Below the pieces are notes generated by a model. That model was not told the DNA's origin. It searched no databases and was given only the letters and a program-made list of their open reading frames with translations. Below are positions 5,521-39,445 of a DNA stretch of 42,107 bases, piece by piece; within the stretch, counting starts at the first letter, position 1, and each line of letters begins with the position of its first letter. Position numbers and translations under genes: made by a program. The stretch is from Lawsonibacter sp. (GTDB lineage: Bacteria > Bacillota > Clostridia > Oscillospirales > Oscillospiraceae): assembly GCA_022794495.1 (NCBI GenBank), contig JAAWEX010000001.1, positions 1 to 42,107 of the forward strand, given 5' to 3'.

Positions 5521-5596
5521 GCTGGTGTAGCTCAGCCGGTAGAGCAGCTGATTTGTAATCAGCAGGTCGGGGGTTCGAATCCGTCCACCAGCTCCA
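5521..5596 (+). tRNA. tRNA-Thr(TGT)
   Basis: 76-nt cloverleaf, GCTGGTG/CACCAGC acceptor stem, anticodon loop TTTGTAA, GGTTCGAATCC, encoded CCA. Confidence 0.97.
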
Positions 5597-5736: not shown

Positions 5737-5821
5737 GGAGGAGTTCCCGAGTGGCCAAAGGGGGCAGACTGTAAATCTGTTGCGTTTTGCTTCGGTGGTT
5801 CGAATCCACCCTCCTCCACCA
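5737..5821 (+). tRNA. tRNA-Tyr(GTA)
   Basis: 85 nt with long variable arm, GGAGGAG/CTCCTCC acceptor stem, anticodon loop CTGTAAA, encoded CCA. Confidence 0.97.
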
Positions 5822-6144: not shown

Positions 6145-6492
6145 TTATTCATGCCCTGAGCAGCCAGGACCGCCCACATAGTCGGAAATCATGTCCAGGC
6201 GGTAAGCCTCCATGGCCTCCACCGCCTGCTCCACCGTCATCCCGGCAGCCAGATACCGGGTAACGCCCGCCTGCGCGATGGTCTCAAAAAAATCGGCGTC
6301 ATGGACCGGGCCGCACAGCAGGGCCTCACACTGGGTGTCAACGATATGCCGGGCCAGGTCATCCGTAACGTAACGGGCCGGGGCGCCGGTCTCCAGATCA
6401 AAAATCATCACGCCCTTTGCCTCCTCCATCGTATCGGGAATCAGGGCAGATCTGTCATTTTTGTCAGCAGCGGCAGCAATCATCATAGTCAT
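6145..6492 (-). CDS. NifX/NifB-like (dinitrogenase FeMo-cofactor biosynthesis family) small protein
   Basis: 115 aa with MIAAAAD...MIFDLE...CEALLCGP...AGVTRY pattern of NifX-fold proteins; RBS AGGAGG. Confidence 0.6.
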   Translation of the reverse strand: MTMMIAAAADKNDRSALIPDTMEEAKGVMIFDLETGAPARYVTDDLARHIVDTQCEALLCGPVHDADFFETIAQAGVTRYLAAGMTVEQAVEAMEAYRLDMISDYVGGPGCSGHE

Positions 6493-6498
6493 TTCCTC

Positions 6499-7351
6499 CT
6501 ATTCTTCAAACAACAATATGTCCCGCGGCGCAATGGCGGCGGTGAACTCCTCTTTTTCCTCCAGGGCCCGCCAGGCCGCCTTGTCCAGCTCCATCCGCAG
6601 AGGAGGGGCGTCCCGGGCAGCCCCCCGGGGGGACAGCGTCTGTAAAGTTTTTGCAGCCGGACAGCCGGGCGGCGGCCTCGGTACCTGGGGTGTGGAAGAG
6701 CTGGGACAGGTCCTGGACCGGACAGGACTGCCCCCGGTCGATGACGCACACCCGCTGGCAGCTGCGGAACACCTCCCCCCGGTCGTGGGACACCCAGAGG
6801 ACCGTGCCGGGGAACTGGTCCAGCGTCTCCATCAGCTCCAGCTCCAGCTGGTACTTGAGATAGCTGTCCAAAGCGGAAAAGGGCTCGTCCAGCAGCAGGG
6901 TCCGGGGATCCGAGGCCAGAATCCGGGCCAGAGCCGCCCGCTGCTGCTGGCCTCCGGACAGCTGGCCCGGCCGCTGGTCCGCCACCCGCTCCAGCTGAAA
7001 ACGGCGGAGCAGTTCAGAGGATACCCGCTCCCGCTTCCCCCGGTCCCGAACGGCGGCGGCGATGTTCTGGGCCACCGTCATGTTGGGAAACAGGGCGTAC
7101 TGCTGGAACAGGTAGCCTACCCGGCGGCGCTGGGGAGGCAGGCTGATTTTGGCGGCACTGTCAAAGAGTGTAATGCCGTCCAGAACAATCTTCCCCCCGT
7201 CCGGCGTCATGATCCCGGCAATGCACCGCAGAGTCACCGACTTGCCGCAGCCCGAGGCTCCCAGAAGAGCCAGACGCTCCTCCTCCGCCTCAAACTGAAT
7301 CTGAAGGCGGAACCCGCCCAGCTGTTTTTGAATGTCTACCGATAGGGCCAT
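6499..7351 (-). pseudogene. modC: molybdate ABC ATPase ModC with frameshifting internal deletion near the C-terminus
   Basis: Walker [28 protein letters not shown]; after FTDAVP the plausible C-terminus (PLRMELDKAAW...PRDILLFEE*) lies in another frame, joined at CCCCCCGGGGGG (6621-6632). Confidence 0.75.
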
Positions 7352-7355
7352 ATTC

Positions 7356-8021
7356 TCACCTCCCCGCCCTCTGCCGGGTCTCCAGCAGGTTGATAGCCAG
7401 CAGAAAGACGGCGGAGAGGGCGATGTTGGCCAGCACCCACCCCAGGGCCCCGGCGTCGTCCCCGGTGCGCCACAGCTGGTAGACCGTGGTGGAGATGGTG
7501 TCGGTGCGGCCCGGGGTATAGCCCGCCACCATGGAGGTGGCGCCGTACTCCCCCAGGGCCCGGGCAAAGGCCAGCACTGTCCCGCCCAGGATGCCCTGCT
7601 TGCAGCAGGGCATCTGCACCCGCCAGAACACCCAGGTATTGGACCGGCCCAGGGTCCGGCCGGCGTCGGCCAGGTTTTGGTCAAAGCTCTCAAAGGCCCC
7701 CCGGGCGGTGCGGTACATCAGGGGAAAGGCCACCACTACGGTGGCGAAGATGGCCGACTGCCAGGTCATGACCAGCCGCAGGCCGAACACGCTCTGCACC
7801 CAGGCTCCCAGAGGACGCTTAGGTCCCAGCAGGAGCAGCAGCAGCCAGCCCACCACCGTGGGGGGCAGCACCAGGGGCAGGGTGAGGACCACATCCAAAG
7901 CCCCCTTGACCGCTCGTGGCAGCCTGGCGGTCCAGTGGGCGGCGGCAATGCCCAGAAAAAACACCACCACGGTGGAAATGGCCGCGATGCGCAGGGAGTT
8001 CAGCAGCGGATACCAGTCCAT
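7356..8021 (-). CDS. modB: molybdate ABC permease ModB
   Basis: LPLVLPPTVVG, FPLMYRTARGAF, LAFARALGEYGAT. Confidence 0.93.
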   Translation of the reverse strand: MDWYPLLNSLRIAAISTVVVFFLGIAAAHWTARLPRAVKGALDVVLTLPLVLPPTVVGWLLLLLLGPKRPLGAWVQSVFGLRLVMTWQSAIFATVVVAFPLMYRTARGAFESFDQNLADAGRTLGRSNTWVFWRVQMPCCKQGILGGTVLAFARALGEYGATSMVAGYTPGRTDTISTTVYQLWRTGDDAGALGWVLANIALSAVFLLAINLLETRQRAGR

Positions 8022-8030
8022 AAGTACCTC

Positions 8031-8107
8031 CTGTAGGGGGCGGCCTCCGGGCCGCCCCGAGTTGTTCCCTTGCTGTCGCGGGGCGGCGCAGAGACCGCCC
8101 CCTACAG
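8031..8107. repeat. GTAG-type REP doublet (REPIN-like)
   Basis: 13-bp terminal inverted repeat CTGTAGGGGGCGG/CCGCCCCCTACAG, each end with its own GC hairpin. Confidence 0.65.
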
Positions 8108-8614
8108 CTAGCCCAACGGGGTAAAGCCCACATTCTCAAAAATTTTGGCGGAGCTCTCCTTCTGGAGGAAGACCAGGAATGCCTTGGCTTCGACTGGGTG
8201 CTTACTGTCCTTCAGCACGGCGGCGGGATAGATCACCTGGCCGCACATCTCGGCGGCAGCGGTGTCCACCACGGTCAGCTTGGCGGAGGCGGCGTCGGTA
8301 CCGTAGATGATGCCGCAGTCCACGGCGGCCTCGGACACCTGGGTGGTGACCTCTTTCACATTGGAGCCGTAGGTCAAGGTTCCGGCGGCGGCCAGGGCCT
8401 GCTCGTCCAGCTCATAGAATTCGAAAATCTTTTGGGTGTACTGGCTCACCGGGACGTCGCTGTTGCCCATGGACAGCAGAACGGGGATATCCTTCTCGGT
8501 TACGATGTGGCCCTTGCGAAACCGGGCATCCTTGTACTGGTCCTTGATGATCTGGGTCATGTCGTGGCAGGGGACGTGGCCTATGGCGTCCTCAGTACGG
8601 ATCAGCTTCATCAT
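8108..8614 (-). pseudogene. in-frame chimera: MoeA-like molybdopterin-binding protein N-terminus fused to ModA C-terminal half
   Basis: MKLIRTEDAIGHV.CHDMTQII...FRKGHIVT...LLSMG (MoeA-like) joins NSDVPVSQY...GSNVKEV...DCGIIYGTDA...VIYPAAV (ModA); no signal peptide. Confidence 0.75.
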
Positions 8615-8642
8615 AACACCTCATTTTTTCTTGGGAAATGGG

Positions 8643-9431
8643 TCAGCCTCCCGCCCGCTCCTGAATGAGCTGGGCGGCGATGGACACGGCAATCTCCGCC
8701 GGGGTCTCCGCTTTAATGTCCAGACCGATGGGGGTAGTAATCCGGGCCAGGTCGGCGTCGGCATAGCCCATCTCCTTCAGCCCGGCAAATACCGCCGCCG
8801 TCTTTTTTCGGCTGCCGATTACGCCGATATATTTGGCCGGCGTCTTCAGCACATGGGCCTGAACCGTCAGGTCGTCCTTGTGGCCCCGGGTCATAACGGC
8901 CACGCAGTCCTCGGCTGTAATATCCTGATAGGCGGCGGGATCGTCGTTTTGGATCAGCCGGGTCTCCTCTACGCCGGGGAAGAGCTCAGGCCGGCAGAAG
9001 TCCTCCCGGTCCTCCAGCACTACACACCGGAAGTCCACCGCCGCCAGGGCGGGGACCAGAGCCTGGGCCACATGCCCGCCGCCGAAGATGAACACCCGCC
9101 CGGCCTCCACCAGCGGGATATCGGCGGGCGAGACCAGCACCCGCCGGGTCTCTCCCTCCAGCCGCTCCAGACCCAGAACCAGGGAATCCAGCATCTGGGT
9201 GCTGTAGTAGCGCTCGTTTCGGATAAAGCGGATATTCAGGCCCTCCAGATGGCGCTCCAGCGCCTCTCCCCGATAGCCGGTAACCACCAGGATGGGGTCA
9301 GCCCCCGCCCGGCGCATCATGTCCGCTACCCGGCGGATCATGGTCTGCCCGTCCACCGGGAGCATGGGCTTGAAAGCCCCCATCCGGGATGAGACCCCGG
9401 CGGCCAAAATCAGGCCTGCCAGCTGTGTCAT
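8643..9431 (-). pseudogene. in-frame chimera: MocA/MobA-like nucleotidyltransferase N-part fused to XdhC C-terminal domain
   Basis: LILAAGVSSRMGAFK...PADIPLVE joins AGRVFIFGGGHVAQAL...MTRGH...YIGVIGSRKK...PIGLDIKAETPAEIAVSIAAQ. Confidence 0.75.
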
Positions 9432-9448
9432 ATTGTTTCCCTCCCGAT

Positions 9449-10238
9449 CTAAGCGATGTCCAGCCCCAGCTGCTCCGCCGCCTGCAGGGCCCGATGGTAG
9501 CGCCGCTCCCAGGCCGCCAAAGCCTTGGGGGTTCTGCACAGAGAACGCTTCGCCCCAAAGCGCTGATGCAGGCTGACCGTCCGCTCCCCCTGCACCAGCT
9601 TGTCGGCCAAATAGAGCAGGGCGGCCTCCACCCCGGCCTCCTCGGGCAGGTCGTGGTGGACGCAGATGACCTCTCCCAGCACAGGCCAGCCCTCCTTGAC
9701 CATGAGCTCGCCGCAGGCGTGGGCGTGGTCCGGCCAGTCCCGGACCAGGTCGTGAAACAGGCAGGCGGCACAGCCACCCCCGGTTGACGCCTCCGTGCGC
9801 CACCACGGCGATATCCCCCTCAGATTGGGCAAGGATATCTCGAACCGCCCCCGCCATCCGTCCCCCGGCCTGAGCAAAGCTCTCCCCGCCGGGGGGCGGG
9901 TAAGTCCCGAGCTTCTGCCCCCGCCGGGCGTACTCCGCCGGCCAGCGCCTTTTGATTTCCTCAAAGGTCAGGCCGGTCCAGGCGCCGGTATCCATCTCGG
10001 CCAGGCCGCTGTCAGGATAGACCGGAACACGCTCCTCCGCCAGAATATGGGAGGTCTGGACACAGCGCAGAGCCGGGCTTGTATAGACGGCGGCAATGGA
10101 TTTCTCCCTGGCCCAGTCCCTCAGCGCCCCGGCCTGCCGCCGTCCCGCCTCAGACAGTGGAGCATCTTCGGCGTAGCCGCAGGTGTGCGTCTCTCGGACC
10201 TGGGGTTGTCCGTGGCGGATCAGATACAGGGTTCGCAC
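9449..10238 (-). pseudogene. histidine phosphatase N-part joined out of frame to an HD-domain C-part
   Basis: LYLIRHG...YTSPALRCVQT...VVAHGGVNR, then a frame change at about 9765 to ACLFHDL...HAHACG...HHDL...LYLADKLVQG. Confidence 0.7.
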
Positions 10239-10253
10239 ATCGGCTTTCTCCTC

Positions 10254-10640
10254 TCACACTCCCGTTTTTCGGGAAATACACAGGGAATAACCCGGCTTCA
10301 CGCCCCGGGGCCAGTCCGGGCTGCGGAGAATATCCGGCAGGCCGCAGTCCCGGCCCGACAGCACGGCGCCCGCCCACAGAGAGGTCAGCGCGGGGGTGTG
10401 ATCCTCAAAGAGAACCGGCTCCAGGCCGGCCTGTCTGAGCCGGCCCTCCAGGCCCTCCCGGCTGTCCAGCCGGCCCAAGAGGGTGTGGGCGTCCCCGCCC
10501 TTCCGGGCATACAGGTCAGAGAGGACCAGACCTCCCCCCGGCTTCAGGACCCGGGCGCACTCCCCCAAAGCATCCTCCGGCCTCTCCATCTGGGACAGAG
10601 CGCACTCGATCAGCACCCCGTCAAAGGTTCCCGCCGGAGT
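10254..10640 (-). pseudogene. C-terminal half of a class I SAM methyltransferase (DVU_1556-like)
   Basis: FDGVLIECALS...ECARVLKPGGGLVLSDLY; SAM motif I and a start codon/RBS are absent. Confidence 0.7.
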
Positions 10641-11571
10641 GGAGACCGCAGAGGGGGTGGTCGCAGGCGGAAGGGACCAGGCTCTCCCGGGGGATGAGAC
10701 CCCCGGTCTGGCCCACGATGTCGTCCAGCAGCTGGCCCATGGTGTACCGCTCCCCATCCCCGGGGAGGGCGGGCACCCGGCCAAAGTAGCTCACCGGCTG
10801 GAAGTGCACCCCCCGGACAGTGGGGCTCCAGGCCAGACCGAAGCGGATGATATCCCCGACCTGGTCCGTGTTCACCCCGGGTACCAGGGTGGGCACCAGG
10901 ACCACTCCTACGCTTTCCTCCGCGCAGGCCATGACAGCCGCCCCCTTGGCGCCCAGCAGCTCCCGGCCCCGGAGGGCGCGGTACACCGCTTCCGTTATCC
11001 CGTCGAACTGTAAAAACACAATATCCAGCCCCGCCCGGGCCAGCGCGTGGAGATACGCGGGGTCCTCCGCCAGCCGCAGGCCGTTGGTGTTCAGCTGAAC
11101 ATAGGGACACCCGGCTTTCTTGGCGTGGGTCACGATTTCCGGCAGGTCATCCCGCAGGGTGGGCTCTCCGCCGCTGAGCTGGAGCAGGGTGCCGCCGGTC
11201 TGTCGAACCATATCGTCAATCCAGCCCTTCACCCGCTCCAGAGGCGGGTCTTGCGTCTGGCTGTTGTCCGCGAAGCAGAAGCGGCAGCGCAGGTCACACC
11301 GGTCGGTGACCTCCAGAAGGGTGCAGCAGGTGTTTCGCAGGTGCTTCCCGCACAGGCCGCAGTCCTCCAGACAGCGCAGGCCCTCCTCCGCCCCGATCTC
11401 CTCCCGGGGGCCGGTCCAGTCCTCCAAGGCCTCGCTCCCCTGCCAGACCAGAGCGGAGAACGCCCCGTGCTCCGGGCAGGTCTTTTCCAGATAGCAGCGG
11501 CCCTCCCGCTCCACCCGCACCGCAGGGACGCGCTTCAGGCAGACAGGACAGACACTGGTGGTTTTGTGCAC
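10621..11571 (-). pseudogene. radical SAM protein (TrsS-like), C-terminally truncated
   Basis: TTSVCPVCL, KTCPEHG, CDLRCRFC (CX3CX2C), QLSGGEPT, LNTNG, VHFQPVSYFGR; stops abruptly after CDHPLCGLHSG where the methyltransferase fragment begins. Confidence 0.75.
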
Positions 11572-11572
11572 A

Positions 11573-12205
11573 TCAAACACTCCTCTCCAACAGGCTCCGC
11601 TTCTGCATCCCGGTTCCGGCAAATCCGGTAAGGGCTTGGGCACAGACGCGCTCCGGGACAGGACCTCCCGCCTCCGCCAGCGCGCGGCGGGCATATTCCG
11701 GGTCTGGGGGAGTCACCCCATACAGAGTGAGCGCCCCCTCTTTCAGGGTGTAGTCCACCACCCCCGGGCAGGCCAGCAGCACGCCGTCCAGCGCCCACAG
11801 CCGGCCCTTTCCTGCCAGCCGGCCGCCCTGGGGGAGCATCCGCCGGACAAAGCTGCCGCAGGGACAGGGCCCGGGCAGGAGTCTCCCCATGTCGCCGGTC
11901 CGGTAGCGGAGGAAGGGCATGGCCCGCCGGTCCAGGGTGGTGAACACGAGCTCCCCCATGCCGTGGGCGAAGAAGTCCACCGTCCGCTCCTGGTCCTCCC
12001 GGCGGAAAAATATCCGCTTGGGGGAGGCCGTGGTGCCGGAAGTCTTAAGCGTTACAACGCGCTCCACCTCGGCCCCGCCGCAGCACAGCCAGCGCTGAGG
12101 GTCGGCCCGGAGCTGGTCCGCCGTGGTAAACGGAATACGGGCCAGATCCTCCCGGGTACAGATGTCCTCCGGTCGGACCGCTCTCAGGTGCTCCCTATAG
12201 AATGC
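11573..12205 (-). pseudogene. phenylacetate-CoA-ligase-like AMP-binding protein (DVU_1553-like), N-terminus missing and internal deletion
   Basis: FYREHL...IPFTT...TSGTTASPKRIFF...FFAHGM is directly followed by GELVFTTL...RYRTGD...CPCGS; the central domain is absent. Confidence 0.72.
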
Positions 12206-14250
12206 TGATCCATTTTTTTCAAAAGCTCCGGTGAGATGAGCAGGGGAGCCCCGGTATGTGCGTTCTCCATAGATGGCGCCTCCTCCGGTTTATAGCGCAG
12301 CAAAAGCTGCCGTTTCAGCCAGCGGCGGCTGTCCCGGCTCTGGGTAGCGGTGGGGACGGGGTCGTCCCACAGCCCGCCCTCCCTTTCCGGGAAAATGGCC
12401 CGCAGCAGGTGGGCCGCCGCCTTGCCCCTCCGGGCGAACACGTCCCTGCAGTTGGCGCAGTAAACCAGATAGGGCAGAGGACTGGCCTCAATCCGGTTTT
12501 GGGCCACCCCCTGGGCATATTTGGGGTTGGCAATCTCCACCTGCCCGCCCCAGCCGCAGCACTGGGCGTACTCCCCCTCCAGGGGAAGGGCATCCAAATG
12601 AAAACCAGCCTTTCGGGCCAAAGACCGAACAGCCCTCTGAGTCTCCGGGAAATCCCGGCTGGGGCAGGGGTCAAATACCGCGGCGGTCTGCCCCGCGCCG
12701 GATCGGAAGACAGGCAGGTCCCAGCTGTCCAGCAGCTCATAGAGGGACATCCCCTCCGCCCGGGGCAGGTGACGGGCCAGCTCCTGGCGGCAGTTGAGGC
12801 AGGCGAACACCACTGTGGGCCGTCCCAGGTCCTCCCAGACCCGTGCGAACTCTTCCACGGTCTCGCTGTGGAGCTTTTCCTCCCCCGCCCACTCCGCCGG
12901 CGCACCGCAGCAGCCCAGATAGAGGGCCGATTCAGGCTCATGCTCCAGGAGGGTGCGGAAGCTGTCCAGAACCAGCCGAGGGTCAGAGCCCCCCAGGCGG
13001 CATCCGGGGAAAAACAGATATTTGGGGTTCCCGTTCCCGTCAGGGTCCAGCAACAGGGAAGCCTCCCCATTGGAAAACTCCATGTCCCGCAGCCAGAACT
13101 CGTGGTAGGCCCAGGGCATGGCCTCCTCCTCCACCATCCGCCGGTGGCTGTCCAACAGATAGGTACCGGTGTCCAGAGAGACGGGGCACACCTCCTTGCA
13201 CAGCCCGCAGTGGTTGCAGGTGGCGATGAAGCGGGTGGCCAGCCGGGCCTTTCGGGACAGGCTCACCGGCTCAATGGTGGTCTGGACCTCCTCCTCCACC
13301 CGCTTGGGATACTTGTGGTAGCTGCGCATCAGGTCGCAGTATTTGACGCAGGCGTCGCACTGGCACTGTTGGCACCGGCCCGCCTCGGCGGCGGCCTCCT
13401 CCCTGGTGAGAATGTCCTCCCCCGCCCGGCGGGCGGGGGGCGTATAGGGCAGCAGCGCCGGGTCCGGGTGGAAGCGGGTGGAGAAATCCCGAAAGGGTTC
13501 GTTCATCCCGCCCACTTTTAAATACCGCTCGATGGCCTTGGCGGCAAGCAGCCCGTCAGCAATGGCCTCCATCACGGTCCGGCCCGCCAGTTCTCCGCCC
13601 AGGAATACGCCGTCCCGCCGGGAGGCGCAGGCCCCCCTGCCGGACAGCTCCAGTCCAAAGCAGTCCCCTCCTGCCCCGGTGGACACATAGACCGCGTCCG
13701 CCTGGACTTGAGCCAAATCCGTGACTCTCTGCCCGAGGCGGAAGTCCACCTTTTCATACATGAACTGGCGCTCCAGCTCAGGCATAAATACCTCCTCTGG
13801 CAGGAGAGACCATAGGGAGCCGCCTACTCGTTCTTCTTTCTCGAAGATAACAACCTCGTACTTTTTTGAGGCCAGGCGCAGAGCGCAGGCCAAGGCGCCG
13901 GGACCCGCCCCGATCACAGCGATCTTGTTGGGCCTCCTGGGCAGATTATAGCTGTTGGGCTTGATATTGGGGGCGTGGGCAATAGCTGCCGCCTCCAGGT
14001 CCCGCAGGGCGACGGCCCCTCCCCTGGCGGAGAAGACGCAGGCCGCCTGGCAGGGCTGGGTACACAGCCGGCTGACAATGCCGGGAAAGGCCACCGTGTC
14101 CCGGTAGAGCCGAAAGGCGGCGCTGAAAGCCCCCCGCTTCATATGTCCGATGAACGCCCGGATGTCCAAGCCGAAGGGGCAGACCGAGGCACAGGGAGGC
14201 GGATCGTCCTGCATACAGGTCCGGGCCAGCTGGGCACGGAAGTCACTCAT
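12184..14250 (-). pseudogene. FAD/Fe-S (GltD-like plus dicluster/CCG) oxidoreductase, C-terminus apparently truncated
   Basis: PPCASVCP, CTQPCQAAC, VIGAGPGALACA, CQQCQCDACVKYC, CNHCGLCKEVCP, FFPGC, CCGAPA, CCGWGG, CANC; ends where the AMP-binding fragment starts in another frame; RBS AGGAGG. Confidence 0.7.
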
Positions 14251-14278
14251 AGGGATACCTCCTGAGTAGAAAGAGAAA

Positions 14279-14308
14279 GCAGGGCGCGGCGCGCCGCCGC
14301 GCCCTGCA
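14279..14308 (-). terminator. hairpin downstream of the aldehyde oxidoreductase gene
   Basis: GCAGGGCGCGGCG...CGCCGCGCCCTGC followed by a T-rich run on the minus strand. Confidence 0.55.
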
Positions 14309-14329
14309 TAAAAGGCCCGCAGGAAAAGC

Positions 14330-16336
14330 TTAGAAGGGCTTGGCGGCGTTCTTGTCGTCCAGGGGCTCATAGAAGCTGTCACCGCCGAATTTGACGGGGT
14401 GCTCCTTGATGTCCGCCAGACGCTCGTACATATCGTCGCCCAGGAAGTACTTTTCCGGCTGGAAGGGCGCTTCGCCGGCGGCGATGGCGTCCATGCCGGC
14501 CTTGATCTTGTCGGGGGAGGCGGGCAGCTCGTACACGCGCACGCCGCAGGCCCGCTTGATGCCGTTGATGACGGCCATATGGCCGGAGGCCTGGAAGGCC
14601 TCGGAGGAGCCAGAGGAGCCGAAGGGGCCGATTTCGTCGGGCCGGTCGATAAGAATCACGTTGATATCGTCGGGGGTGTCGGTGCAGTAGGGCACGCCGG
14701 ACCGGGCGATGTTGCCGTGAATCTTCACGTCGTCATAGTTCTCGGTGAGGGCGAAGCCGATGGAGTGGGAGATGCCGCCGTAGGCCTGGCCCAGAACAGC
14801 CGCGATGTTGCCCGGCTTGCCCACATCGGTGACGCAGGCGAAGCGGACACAGCTGGCCTTGCCGGTCTTGACGTCCACCTCTACCTCGGCGATATTGAAG
14901 CAGTAGGTGTAGGAGGGATTGGGGTTGCCCACGCCGGTGTTGGGGTCCATACGGCAAAGCTTCTTGCCCCGGGGGGCGGCGGTGGTGCAGGAGTAGGTGC
15001 CGTGGTAGCGGGTGGGCAGGCCCTCGGCCACCATCTCGTCATAGGTGCGGTAGGTGCCGTCGGGCTTACGCATGGCGTCCAGCAGCTTATTGGCCGCGTC
15101 GATGGTGGCGTTGCCGCTCATGAAATGGGTGCGGCTGGCGCCGGACATGCCGGAGTCGGGACACAGCTTGGTGTCGTTCTGCACCAGCCGGACCTGCTCA
15201 GGCTTGATGCCCAGGGGCTTCAGGGCCTCCAGCGTGAGCATCAGGGAGCCGATGTCGCCGCCCTGGCCAAGCTCCTGATAGGTGTCGTACTTGGTGATGG
15301 TGCCGTCCGGGTTGAGCTCCAGGTCGGCGTGGGCCTCGTCGGTGGCCCCCTCGGTGACGTTGAAGCCGCCCCAGGCCACGCCCACGCCCCGGAGCTTTTC
15401 GGGAGTGGAGGTCTTCTTCGCGTGCTCCACCATCTCCTCATAGACGGGCTTGGCCTTGATCATGATCTCCTCCATGGGGTACTGGGGGTAGTCGTAGCTG
15501 GCGGTGGTGGTGTCCCCCTCGCGGGCGATATTGCGCCAGCGGATCTCAAAGGGGTCCAGCCCCAGCTTCTCGGCCATCAGATCCATCATGGACTCGGAGT
15601 GGGTGTAGGCCTGGGGGGAGCCGTAGGAGCGGTAGGCGGTGGCAAAGTTGTGGTTGGTGTTGGCAATGCGGCCCAGAGCGGCCACATGGGGCACGTTGTA
15701 GGGGAAGTAGACGTGGCGGACCACCTTGGTAATCAGGTCGTCGCCGTAGTCATACAGGCCGCAGACCTTGGCCAGAGCGGTGGGGCGCACCAGGGGCTTG
15801 CCATAGTACTCGCCGTCCTTGGGAACCTTGACCGAGATGTCCTCAATCGCGGCCTCGCCCCGCATAACCTTGGCGGCGGCCATCACGGCGTCGATAATCT
15901 GCTTGTAGCCGGTGCAGCGGCAGACGTTGCGGTGCTTGGTGAACCACTCCCGGGCCTCCTGGCGGGTGGGGTTGGGGTTGCTCATCAGCAGAGCGTAAGT
16001 AGAGACAATGAAGCCAGGGGTGCAGAAGCCGCACTGCACCGCGCCGCAGTTCATCCAGGCGATCTGGATGGGGTGGGGATTCTGGGGCGTGCCGATGCCC
16101 TCGATGGTGATAACCGTGCTGTACTCCTTGATGGCCCGAACCTTGCGGGTGCAGGAGCGGACCAGCTCGCCGTTGGTAATCACAGAGCAGGAGCCGCACA
16201 CGCCGGTGCCGCAGCCCACCTTTGTCCCTGTCAGGCCGATACGGCGCAGAATGTCAGACAGCGTGTCCACCTCCGGGTCACAGGAGAAAACGCGGTCCAC
16301 ACCGTTGATATTCAGCCACATTTTTCTAAGGTTCAT
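14330..16336 (-). pseudogene. Mop-like molybdopterin-dependent aldehyde oxidoreductase with a large in-frame internal deletion
   Basis: 2x[2Fe-2S] motifs (GCGTGVCGSC, QCGFCTPG, CRCTGY), then RPTALAKVCG.YDYGDDL jumps directly to ...AYRSYGSPQ; 668 aa versus about 900 aa for Mop; hammerhead and first Moco-binding region missing. Confidence 0.8.
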
Positions 16337-16683: not shown

Positions 16684-17136
16684 ATGAAAAATGAGGAAAA
16701 CTTCATGGCGTTAGATGAAAAAATCGCGGAGCTGCTGTCGCAGAAATTTCACTGCTCCCAGATCATGATGCAGATCGGGCTGGACGCGCTGGATTTGGAC
16801 GAGCCCAACCTGGTCAAGGCCATGACCGGGCTGGCCGGCGGACTGGGAGGCTGCGGAAAAAACTGCGGCGCACTCACAGGCGGCGTGTGCATGATTAGTC
16901 TCTTTGCCGGCCGGGGTGCCGCAGAAGGGGAGGCCGGCCCGGAGTTTGAGACTATGGTCTCCGAATTTTTATTATGGTTTGAGGAGACCTATGGCAGCGC
17001 GGACTGCGGTGACATTATCCAGGGAGACAAGGACAATATCTCCTCCACCTGCCCCCAGCTGATCTGTGCTACCTGCCGGAAAGCACTGGAGCTCCTGCAA
17101 AGCTATGGTTTCCCTGTAGAGAAGGTGTTGGAATAA
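16684..17136 (+). CDS. C-GCAxxG-C-C family redox-active protein (DVU_1555-like)
   Basis: FHCSQ, GLAGGLG, CGALTGG, ADC, TCP motifs; start may be the ATG at 16705. Confidence 0.85.
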   Translation: MKNEENFMALDEKIAELLSQKFHCSQIMMQIGLDALDLDEPNLVKAMTGLAGGLGGCGKNCGALTGGVCMISLFAGRGAAEGEAGPEFETMVSEFLLWFEETYGSADCGDIIQGDKDNISSTCPQLICATCRKALELLQSYGFPVEKVLE

Positions 17137-20499: not shown

Positions 20500-20575
20500 G
20501 GACGATTAGCTCAGCTGGTAGAGCATCCGCTTGACGTGCGGGAGGTCACAGGTTCAAGTCCTGTATCGTCCACCA
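20500..20575 (+). tRNA. tRNA-Val(GAC)
   Basis: GGACGAT/ATCGTCC acceptor stem, anticodon loop TTGACGT, GGTTCAAGTCC, encoded CCA. Confidence 0.96.
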
Positions 20576-39018: not shown

Positions 39019-39445
39019 TTAAGAAACCTGGGCGGTTCGGGAGATAATATCGTTCTGGGTCTCCTTGCAGTCGTTGCCGTACTTCTCGCAGCGGTCGCAC
39101 AGGAGCTTGACGTCCTCACAGCCCTGGAAATCCGCCGCCAAAGCGTCGCACAGGCGCTGCATGGACAGCTTTTTCTCGTCAAATACAAGGTGCTTGACGG
39201 CATACACACTGTTAATCAAATCGGCTACACCAATGGCGTCGATGCCCTCGGTAAGGATCAGCTCATAGCCGGCGGTAGTCTCGCCCCAGCCTCGGACAGC
39301 CTTGCGGTTGATATACAGCGCGCCGCAGTCCCGCAGCGCGGCCGCCTCCTCGGGACACTGCTTGAGCCACTTCTCATAGGTAGAGCGGCTCACCCTCAGA
39401 CTCCTGCATCCCCCTGGTGTAAATCACCGCGTTCTCCAGGTCCAT
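39019..39445 (-). pseudogene. glycyl-radical enzyme (PFL superfamily) remnant made of four spliced segments
   Basis: DLENAVIYTRGMQESEGEP / GETTAGYELILTEGI / IGVADLINSVYAVKHLVFDEKK...LAADFQG...KYGND / QNDIISRT; Cys loop and RVxGY glycyl loop absent. Confidence 0.8.

What the first reader, a model, noticed from the sequence alone, without database searches (positions are those of the whole stretch)
6499..16336. Whole Mo/aldehyde-oxidoreductase operon collapsed by at least eight splice-like deletions
Seen: abrupt domain switches at about 6621-6632 (modC), 8463-8470 (MoeA-like to ModA), 9100-9116 (MocA-like to XdhC), 9762-9770 (phosphatase to HD), 10631-10640 (radical SAM to methyltransferase), 11946-11958 (ligase internal), 12200-12210 (oxidoreductase to ligase) and 15734-15745 (Mop internal). 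The surviving segments show almost no nonsense or frameshift point decay. Several junctions fall on peptide words that I recall both parent segments sharing (MG, PLV, GELV, GDDL). Inference: decay is driven by many microhomology-mediated deletions rather than point mutation, which implies a very active alternative end-joining or slippage process in this lineage. An assembly artefact is the alternative.
Basis: partly seen in the sequence, partly recalled or inferred. Interest (0 to 1): 0.75.

Follow-up and report, generated by a model that had tools for sequence, protein, structure and literature searches.

The report
Operon eroded by eight stepwise deletions
A mouse-gut bacterium has lost about a third of a molybdenum-enzyme gene cluster through eight real DNA deletions and no stop or small frameshift mutations, likely by ordinary slippage at short repeats after a tungsten enzyme likely made the cluster redundant; less-deleted strains still exist, so the decay can be followed step by step.

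Summary
Against intact same-genus relatives, the Mop-type aldehyde-oxidoreductase/molybdate operon lacks eight blocks of 194 to about 1,400 bp (about 5.4 of 15.4 kb), and 9,261 surviving coding bases show no stop or small frameshift. It is not misassembly: contigs from four studies bridge all eight junctions without a difference. Microhomology is only half the story: four junctions carry 9-11 bp repeats, one has 2 bp, one likely 0, two are short and unresolved. That mix matches spontaneous RecA-independent deletions in Salmonella, so no special end-joining system is needed. The collapse is recent and stepwise: same-species strains keep full-length ModC and oxidoreductase or carry other deletions. 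A second operon (sugar uptake, contig C30) collapsed the same way, while about 920 shared genes are nearly all whole. The genome keeps a tungsten-type aldehyde oxidoreductase with its transporter and the pterin-synthesis genes, a likely reason for redundancy. No repair defect was shown: recA, recJ and mutL are present, mutS and recF fall in assembly gaps, and an addA frameshift looks private to this assembly. Verdict: real, known mechanism, unusually deletion-skewed decay.

The parts
14330..16336 (-). Mop-type molybdopterin aldehyde oxidoreductase, 668 aa instead of 977, in-frame internal deletion of 927 bp
   Evidence: (NF045668 in intact L016); exact protein on 28 contigs
15736..15746 (.). 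Junction 8: 11-bp repeat GGTCGTCGCCG (GDDL), one copy left
   Evidence: X14 contigs end at 15746 and begin at 15736
12201..14250 (-). Pyridine nucleotide-disulfide oxidoreductase/dicluster protein (NF045663 family), C-terminal 70 aa lost
   Evidence: 688 aa here, 753 aa in same-species alleles (P0004 has 2 substitutions before the junction)
12201..12202 (.). Junction 7: only 2 bp shared; 515 bp lost, including a small Cys-rich gene and the ligase start
   Evidence: undeleted near-identical allele L029; X14 contig ends agree
11573..12202 (-). DVU_1553-family AMP-dependent CoA ligase remnant, start lost and 160 codons lost internally
11949..11957 (.). Junction 6: 9-bp core repeat AGCTCCCCC (GELV), imperfectly longer; 480 bp lost
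10639..11571 (-). Radical SAM protein TrsS, first 311 of 427 aa
10638..10639 (.). Junction 5: likely blunt (0 bp shared); about 601 bp lost
   Evidence: X14 contigs end at 10638 and begin at 10639; the parent allele itself was not seen
10254..10638 (-). Methyltransferase, C-terminal part only
9449..10238 (-). Histidine phosphatase-HD gene broken by a 269-bp frameshifting deletion
9761..9769 (.). Junction 4: 9-bp repeat GCAGGCGGC
   Evidence: X14 contig begins at 9761
8643..9431 (-). In-frame MocA-like::XdhC chimera, 262 aa; junction 3 near 9097-9107, about 1 kb lost, repeat short and unresolved
   Evidence: shared by same-species variants
8624..8650 (.). Seam where relatives carry moaA-moaC-MOSC; here those genes lie whole on contig C160 (relocation, not loss)
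8108..8614 (-). In-frame MoeA-like::ModA chimera, 167-168 aa; junction 2 at 8463-8472, 10-bp repeat TTGCCCATGG (MG), 1.3-1.5 kb lost
   Evidence: all 14 other listed cluster members are the same chimera, 97-100% identical
7356..8021 (-). modB, whole (221 aa)
6506..7351 (-). modC, 281 aa instead of 348; junction 1 at 6621-6632 in a C-run/G-run quasi-repeat, 194 bp lost
   Evidence: 348-aa alleles and a different modC deletion exist
6145..6492 (-). NifB/NifX-like gene, whole, last gene of the cluster
   Evidence: (PF02579, weak, E 0.005)
16705..17136 (+). DVU_1555-family C-GCAxxG-C-C gene, whole, divergent from Mop

Best explanation
This is a molybdenum aldehyde-oxidoreductase operon broken by eight real DNA deletions that differ between strains of one mouse-gut species, likely made one at a time by ordinary RecA-independent slippage or annealing at short repeats, after a tungsten-type aldehyde oxidoreductase likely made the operon redundant. 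Shown: the deletions, their repeats, the absence of point lesions, less-deleted alleles, a second operon with the same pattern, and an apparently whole tungsten pathway. Inferred: the order (the two in-frame chimeras first; modC, phosphatase, TrsS, oxidoreductase and Mop later), the redundancy, and that 0.2-2 kb deletions arise more often than nonsense or frameshift changes in this species. A fork that stalls would re-pair at a nearby 9-11 bp GC-rich repeat, or rejoin with almost no homology, and drop the DNA between. Selection removes such events from needed genes, so they pile up only in dispensable loci.
For: Real: 20 of 24 listed runs hold 96-100% of the sampled words; X1, X9, X10 and X19 (4 studies) bridge all 8 junctions and X12 and X20 bridge 7 of 8, with 0 other letters. 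Spectrum: 4 of 8 junctions with 9-11 bp, one 2 bp, one likely 0, like Salmonella's 19 of 30 and 11 of 30 (Fisher p 0.69). Recent: dN/dS to relatives 0.20-0.23 against 0.21-0.275 between intact relatives. Stepwise: 753-aa oxidoreductase and 348-aa ModC alleles at about 96-99.7% identity, plus a different modC deletion; X14 contigs break exactly at 4 junctions. Lineage-wide: C30 sugar operon has 8 deletions and no stop and a further deletion in other strains; gaps of 100 bp or more missing from this genome 50, from G016 16. Redundancy: AFOR_C gene with TupA/TupB/ATPase, ferredoxin, two moeA and moeB, moaA-moaC-MOSC-mog whole; AFOR_C in 7 of 112 genus genomes and in none of the 5 relatives that hold the Mop-oxidoreductase stretch.
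Against: No deletion rate was measured, and both loci were found because they have deletions. Point lesions do occur in other strains' remnants (a truncated lipoprotein on 19 contigs). The 50 to 16 asymmetry mixes deletions here with insertions in G016, and mostly falls outside called genes (11 against 6 with a genic breakpoint). 12 of 14 genes are hit, slightly more than random placement gives (P 0.06), a weak hint of selection. Four of the 5 relatives with the Mop stretch are draft genomes (58-95% complete), so their lack of AFOR_C is not proof. The tungsten gene is split over two contig ends, its TupA and TupB scores are under the family cut-offs, and its substrate is untested. Most parent alleles are known only from relatives at 79-86% identity.
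Confidence: 0.58

Rival explanations
1. Selection-driven loss at an ordinary deletion rate: the redundant operon is still transcribed, and each deletion is favoured because it cuts expression cost or removes a useless protein.
For: About 25% of Salmonella deletions raised fitness (PMC3386194 passages). 12 of 14 genes are hit, mostly once (P 0.06). Promoter-like sites remain upstream of Mop (6 found, 3.2 expected). The fully deleted allele is near-identical in many studies.
Against: Nonsense or frameshift changes, a promoter change or one large deletion would serve the same end, yet none is seen in 9,261 nt or in C30. In-frame chimeras persist across strains.
Confidence: 0.27
2. A repair-defective deletion mutator: loss of AddAB resection, mismatch repair or RecF pushes breaks and stalled forks into end-joining or strand annealing, as in Ca. 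Sodalis pierantonius.
For: addA has a one-base frameshift near codon 67 in this assembly, the only clear small frameshift in an otherwise whole gene among 920 orthologues. MutS_V is found in 111 of 111 other genus genomes but not here; recF is not found.
Against: A whole 1,200-aa AddA, 98.8% identical, exists in the species, and none of 3 frameshifted pieces tried is in the protein collection. mutS and recF lie in assembly gaps: mutL starts 55 bp from a contig end, mutS2 is cut by a contig end, and gyrAB are missing with recF. recA, recJ and mutL are present without stops. Shared genes are not eroded genome-wide.
Confidence: 0.12
3. Targeted cutting: CRISPR self-targeting or another nuclease cut the operon repeatedly and each break was repaired with a deletion.
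For: The genome holds a 51-repeat CRISPR array on C187.
Against: None of 49 spacers matches the intact operons, L029 or the genome beyond 16-20 base partial hits; the junctions share no motif.
Confidence: 0.02
4. Assembly artefact: the junctions are chimeric joins made by the assembler.
For: The genome is a fragmented, 70% complete assembly; only contigs, not raw reads, could be laid; five of the seven runs laid are flagged as possible sources of this DNA.
Against: Contigs of independent studies bridge the junctions at even depth, including unflagged runs X19 and X20; the exact deleted proteins are on 28 and 41 contigs; the repeats are far shorter than assembly words.
Confidence: 0.01

Closest known systems
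Spontaneous RecA-independent deletions at short homologies (Salmonella; PMC3386194, passages read)
   Same: Bimodal junctions: 6-15 bp repeats in about half or more, 4 bp or less in the rest; one repeat copy left.
   Different: Here natural, 0.2-1.9 kb, and eight stacked in one operon; that assay saw only deletions over 2 kb, one at a time.
Deletogenic replication slippage in Ca. Sodalis pierantonius (PMC4948707; abstract and two of three parts of Results read)
   Same: Repeat-bounded, GC-rich, partly imperfect junctions; deletions outnumber nonsense changes.
   Different: That is an intracellular symbiont lacking recFOR and sbcC, with genome-wide 2-100 bp intragenic deletions. This is a gut commensal with recA, recJ and mutL, larger deletions and few affected loci.
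Deletional bias in bacterial pseudogenes (PMC6054270, passages read)
   Same: Unselected genes shrink by deletion.
   Different: There 81 of 104 deletions in 53 pseudogenes of other taxa were 15 nt or less (set chosen for 3 or more indels). Here all 8 exceed 190 bp and no small frameshift is seen.
Mop / DVU_1551-1555-type aldehyde oxidoreductase cluster (NCBIfam NF045663-NF045669, NF045646)
   Same: Same gene set and order in intact relative G009.
   Different: Here 12 of 14 genes are broken or gone; moaA, moaC, MOSC, mog and the regulator sit at another locus.
Class I tungsten oxidoreductases (WOR) of gut bacteria with TupABC (PMC13328260, passages read)
   Same: The genome encodes an AFOR-family gene beside Tup-like transport genes and a ferredoxin, the likely functional stand-in.
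   Different: Clade, metal and substrate were not tested; a molybdenum-to-tungsten handover is inferred, not shown.

Membership tests
Short-homology (RecA-independent) deletion | Short direct repeats at many endpoints, far above chance, one copy retained | tested here: met
   4 of 8 with 9-11 bp; chance 1.75e-4 each
Short-homology (RecA-independent) deletion | A minority class with 4 bp or less | tested here: met
   2 bp at 12201-12202; likely 0 at 10638/10639
Short-homology (RecA-independent) deletion | Independence of RecA | not testable with these tools
   repeats are below the 25 bp RecA needs (PMC3386194); recA is present
Alternative end-joining (features recalled, not from a call) | Microhomology at essentially all junctions | tested here: inconclusive
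   4 clear, 2 absent or 2 bp, 2 unresolved
Alternative end-joining (features recalled, not from a call) | Initiated by double-strand breaks | not testable with these tools
   no break source found; CRISPR spacers do not match
Classical NHEJ | Ku present | tested here: not met
   PF02735 found in 0 of 5 genomes, including this 70% complete one and a closed relative
Sodalis-type slippage mutator | Loss of recFOR/sbcC | tested here: inconclusive
   recF not found but its region, with gyrAB, is unassembled; recO, recR and sbcC not searched
Sodalis-type slippage mutator | Genome-wide intragenic deletions, mostly 2-100 bp | tested here: not met
   4 deletion rows and 5 frameshift rows among 920 orthologues; operon deletions are 194 bp or more
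Mop/DVU_1551-1555 cluster (ancestral state) | Members pass NCBIfam cut-offs in an intact copy | tested here: met
   L016: NF045668 1115/1100, NF045663 688/530, NF045646 531/490, NF045666 425/300, NF045669 144/103; NF045664 and NF045665 fall below their cut-offs
Functional conserved gene fusion | Fused form conserved in other species | tested here: not met
   none of the 8 relatives' loci aligned shows a junction; listed chimera alleles are 97-100% identical; no distant search with a chimera was run
Tungsten aldehyde oxidoreductase system | AFOR-family gene with Tup transport and pterin genes | tested here: inconclusive
   present but TupA and TupB score under cut-off, the gene spans a contig gap, metal untested

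The most novel reading that the evidence does not exclude
A free-living, recA-positive gut commensal whose loss-of-function mutation spectrum is dominated by 0.2-2 kb deletions rather than point changes (16 deletions to 0 stops in two loci of this genome), caught with living intermediates while it trades a molybdenum aldehyde oxidoreductase for a tungsten one. This would be a natural deletion-prone lineage without the classic symbiont repair losses.
Probability: 0.3. Interest if true: 0.65.

Novelty: new variant of a known kind. Interest (0 to 1): 0.4.

Why it matters
Bacterial pseudogenes usually vanish too fast, or by one large deletion, to show how genomes shed operons. Here two operons in one species keep a ladder of strain-level intermediates, so the long-standing question of mutational bias versus selection in gene loss becomes testable with public mouse metagenomes. 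If the deletion-to-point ratio is really skewed, it points to an unidentified replication or repair trait in a common gut commensal. The likely molybdenum-to-tungsten handover is a concrete case of metal-enzyme replacement in the gut. The junction chemistry itself is textbook.

Tried and rejected
Misassembly: rejected. A ninth deletion at 8624-8650, and gaps for mog and the HTH-cupin regulator: rejected, genes whole on C160. MutS loss: 0 matches here against 111 of 111, but explained by contig ends; open. recF loss: assembly gap; open. addA frameshift as cause: weakened; open for the youngest deletions. Ku: absent here and in 4 relatives. topB: no match over cut-off here or in 3 of 4 relatives. 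30 of 42 G016 genes missing at colinear sites were scanned; none gave a core repair family. CRISPR targeting: no match. Relaxed selection from allele diversity: operon proteins were no more variable than the retained moeA pair. The deleted sequence of the second X14 allele was not displayed in either laying. The metagenome scan gave 5 loci, only L029 near-identical. The core-stop filter left 10 rows in 8 genes here against 6 rows in 3 genes in G016; these were not inspected one by one and may stem from my over-long ORF starts. Eleven GC-rich gene-free stretches were not followed up. Earlier scan notes: none found. Literature searches listed nothing on this species or pattern; subscription papers are not covered and no supplements were read.
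Full report
Setting. The window is contig C16 of a 1.95-Mb, 213-contig, 70% complete genome. Names on related proteins suggest Lawsonibacter, Oscillospiraceae (inferred). Of 24 runs listed, 20 hold 96-100% of the stretch's sampled words; 13 of those 20 are labelled mouse or mouse gut.

The observation. Five of 111 other genus genomes hold the Mop-oxidoreductase stretch. The closed relative G009 shows the intact cluster: C-GCAxxG-C-C protein, Mop-type aldehyde oxidoreductase, dicluster oxidoreductase, DVU_1553 ligase, TrsS radical SAM, methyltransferase, phosphatase-HD, MocA-like, XdhC, moaA, moaC, MOSC, MoeA-like, modABC, mog and a NifB/NifX-like gene (the methyltransferase and MocA-like labels come from the window's remnants). 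Aligned to 8 relatives' loci, the window lacks blocks at all eight places named: 194, 1,294-1,526, 990-1,059, 269, 601, 480, 515 and 927 bp, about 5.4 of 15.4 kb. A ninth gap at 8624-8650 is a relocation: moaA, moaC, MOSC, mog and the regulator are whole on C160. No stop occurs in 15 of 15 surviving segments (9,261 nt) and each keeps one frame. dN/dS to relatives is 0.20-0.23, no higher than between intact relatives, so the decay is recent.

Not an artefact. Seven runs were laid, all as contigs. X1, X9, X10 and X19, from four studies, bridge all eight junctions with no other letter; X12 and X20 bridge seven in the pieces shown. Five of the seven are flagged as possible sources, but X19 and X20 are not. 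The exact deleted Mop and oxidoreductase proteins are recorded on 28 and 41 contigs.

Junctions. Four carry 9-11 bp repeats (8463-8472, 9761-9769, 11949-11957, 15736-15746), against a chance of 1.75e-4 each. An undeleted near-identical allele, L029 (98% and 93% identical on the two flanks), shows only 2 bp at 12201-12202. X14's contigs stop and start at 9756/9761, 10638/10639, 12202/12201 and 15746/15736, the pattern expected when deleted and undeleted alleles share a sample; the overlaps of 2 and 11 bp equal the repeats found independently, so the 0-bp overlap at 10638/10639 likely marks a blunt join. This second allele is inferred; its sequence was not displayed. The modC junction lies in a C-run/G-run quasi-repeat and the MocA-XdhC junction is unresolved; the PLV word is not shared by the XdhC parent. 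In Salmonella 19 of 30 spontaneous deletions had 6-15 bp and 11 had 4 bp or less (PMC3386194 passages); 4 of 8 does not differ (p 0.69).

Stepwise history. Clusters at 90% identity contain 753-aa oxidoreductases (one with 2 substitutions before the junction, on 6 contigs) and 348-aa ModC alleles, and also a different modC deletion that fuses it to the downstream gene. All 14 other listed members of the MoeA-like::ModA cluster are the chimera at 97-100% identity, and matching contig lengths suggest strains with that chimera but whole ModC. The two in-frame chimeras are therefore likely older, the others younger.

Beyond the window. Against the closest relative by recA (G016; 2.36 of about 2.9 Mb fetched, 84% identical), gaps of 100 bp or more number 50 missing here and 16 missing there; with a breakpoint in a called gene, 11 and 6. 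Among 920 orthologues only 4 deletion rows and 5 frameshift rows appear, so the genome is not generally degenerating. One of them led to a second collapsed operon on C30 (LacI regulator, sugar ABC transporter, GH32 hydrolase and two neighbours): 8 deletions of about 60-1,936 bp, 3 with repeats of 9 bp or more, no stop, and a further deletion in other strains. Against a pure-deletion picture, other strains carry a truncated lipoprotein there, on 19 contigs. Both loci were found through their deletions, which biases the tally.

How skewed? Stops are 2.6% of substitutions in these segments. With a substitution rate near 2e-10 per base (recalled), nonsense alone would be about 5e-9 per kb per generation, above the highest Salmonella deletion rate of 1.25e-9 per deletable kb (that assay missed deletions under 2 kb). 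Eight to zero here has probability 0.004 if both were equally likely (hand calculation). In a published pseudogene set 81 of 104 deletions were 15 nt or less (PMC6054270 passages). This suggests, but does not measure, a deletion-heavy supply; selection for each loss is the main rival (12 of 14 genes hit, P 0.06).

Why this operon? The only MoCoBD_2 match in the assembly is the broken Mop. The genome instead has an AFOR-family gene with TupA-, TupB- and ATPase-like genes on C175, and a ferredoxin, two moeA and moeB on C157, whose end appears to hold the enzyme's start. AFOR_C is found in 7 of 112 genus genomes and in none of the five with the Mop stretch. Class I tungsten enzymes of gut bacteria oxidise aldehydes (PMC13328260 passages). 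Keeping pterin synthesis while shedding molybdate uptake, MocA-like, XdhC and Mop fits a handover to tungsten; this is inference.

Repair genes. recA, recJ and mutL are present without stops; Ku is not found. mutS and recF are not in the assembly, but their sites are contig gaps. addA has a one-base frameshift near codon 67, but a whole allele 98.8% identical exists and three frameshifted pieces were not in the protein collection. No mutator allele is established. CRISPR spacers do not match the operon.

Verdict. The mechanism is most likely the known short-homology deletion route, not a special end-joining system. What is unusual is the skew towards medium deletions in a free-living commensal and the survival of intermediates. 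Searches listed no paper on this case within the library held. New variant of a known kind; interest 0.4.

Noticed in passing
L164:1800-5250 (G000 C30): Second collapsed operon (LacI, sugar ABC transporter, GH32 hydrolase and neighbours): 8 deletions, no stop; other strains carry a further deletion.
   Followed up: yes
L188:9477-14170 (C175) and L189:5602-11219 (C157): Tungsten-type aldehyde oxidoreductase with Tup-like transport genes, ferredoxin, two moeA, moeB; rare in the genus (7 of 112).
   Followed up: partly
L163:10790-13869 (C160): HTH-cupin, moaA, moaC, MOSC and mog whole beside type IV pilus genes, apart from the operon.
   Followed up: yes
L192:250-260 (C178, addA): One-base frameshift in a G run separates the Walker A motif from the rest of AddA; likely private to this assembly or strain.
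   Followed up: partly
L170 end (C195) and C36 start: The only one of 112 genus genomes with no MutS_V match; contigs end just upstream of mutL and inside mutS2.
   Followed up: partly
window 8643-10238, minus strand: The 269-bp deletion opens a 531-aa read-through frame from the phosphatase into MocA-like::XdhC, recorded as one protein (P0019).
   Followed up: partly
window 39022-39393, minus strand: Short fragment matching only positions 544-606 of 647 of PF02901 (pyruvate formate-lyase-like); possibly another remnant.
   Followed up: no
L165 (C126:18000-18700): Regulator gene with a frameshift and a 779-bp deletion running into the next gene, against G016.
   Followed up: partly
L168:1565-5031 (C187): CRISPR array of 51 repeats; the repeat changes midway and spacers 1 and 20 give the same hits; type I-C-like by recalled repeat.
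   Followed up: partly
L029, against window 12041-12080: Cluster of 15 differences in 40 bp within an otherwise near-identical allele, suggesting a recombined tract.
   Followed up: no
window 5521-5596, 5737-5821, 20500-20575: tRNA-Thr and tRNA-Tyr just beyond the operon's end, tRNA-Val further on; the relatives' loci show other flanks, so the operon's position varies.
   Followed up: partly
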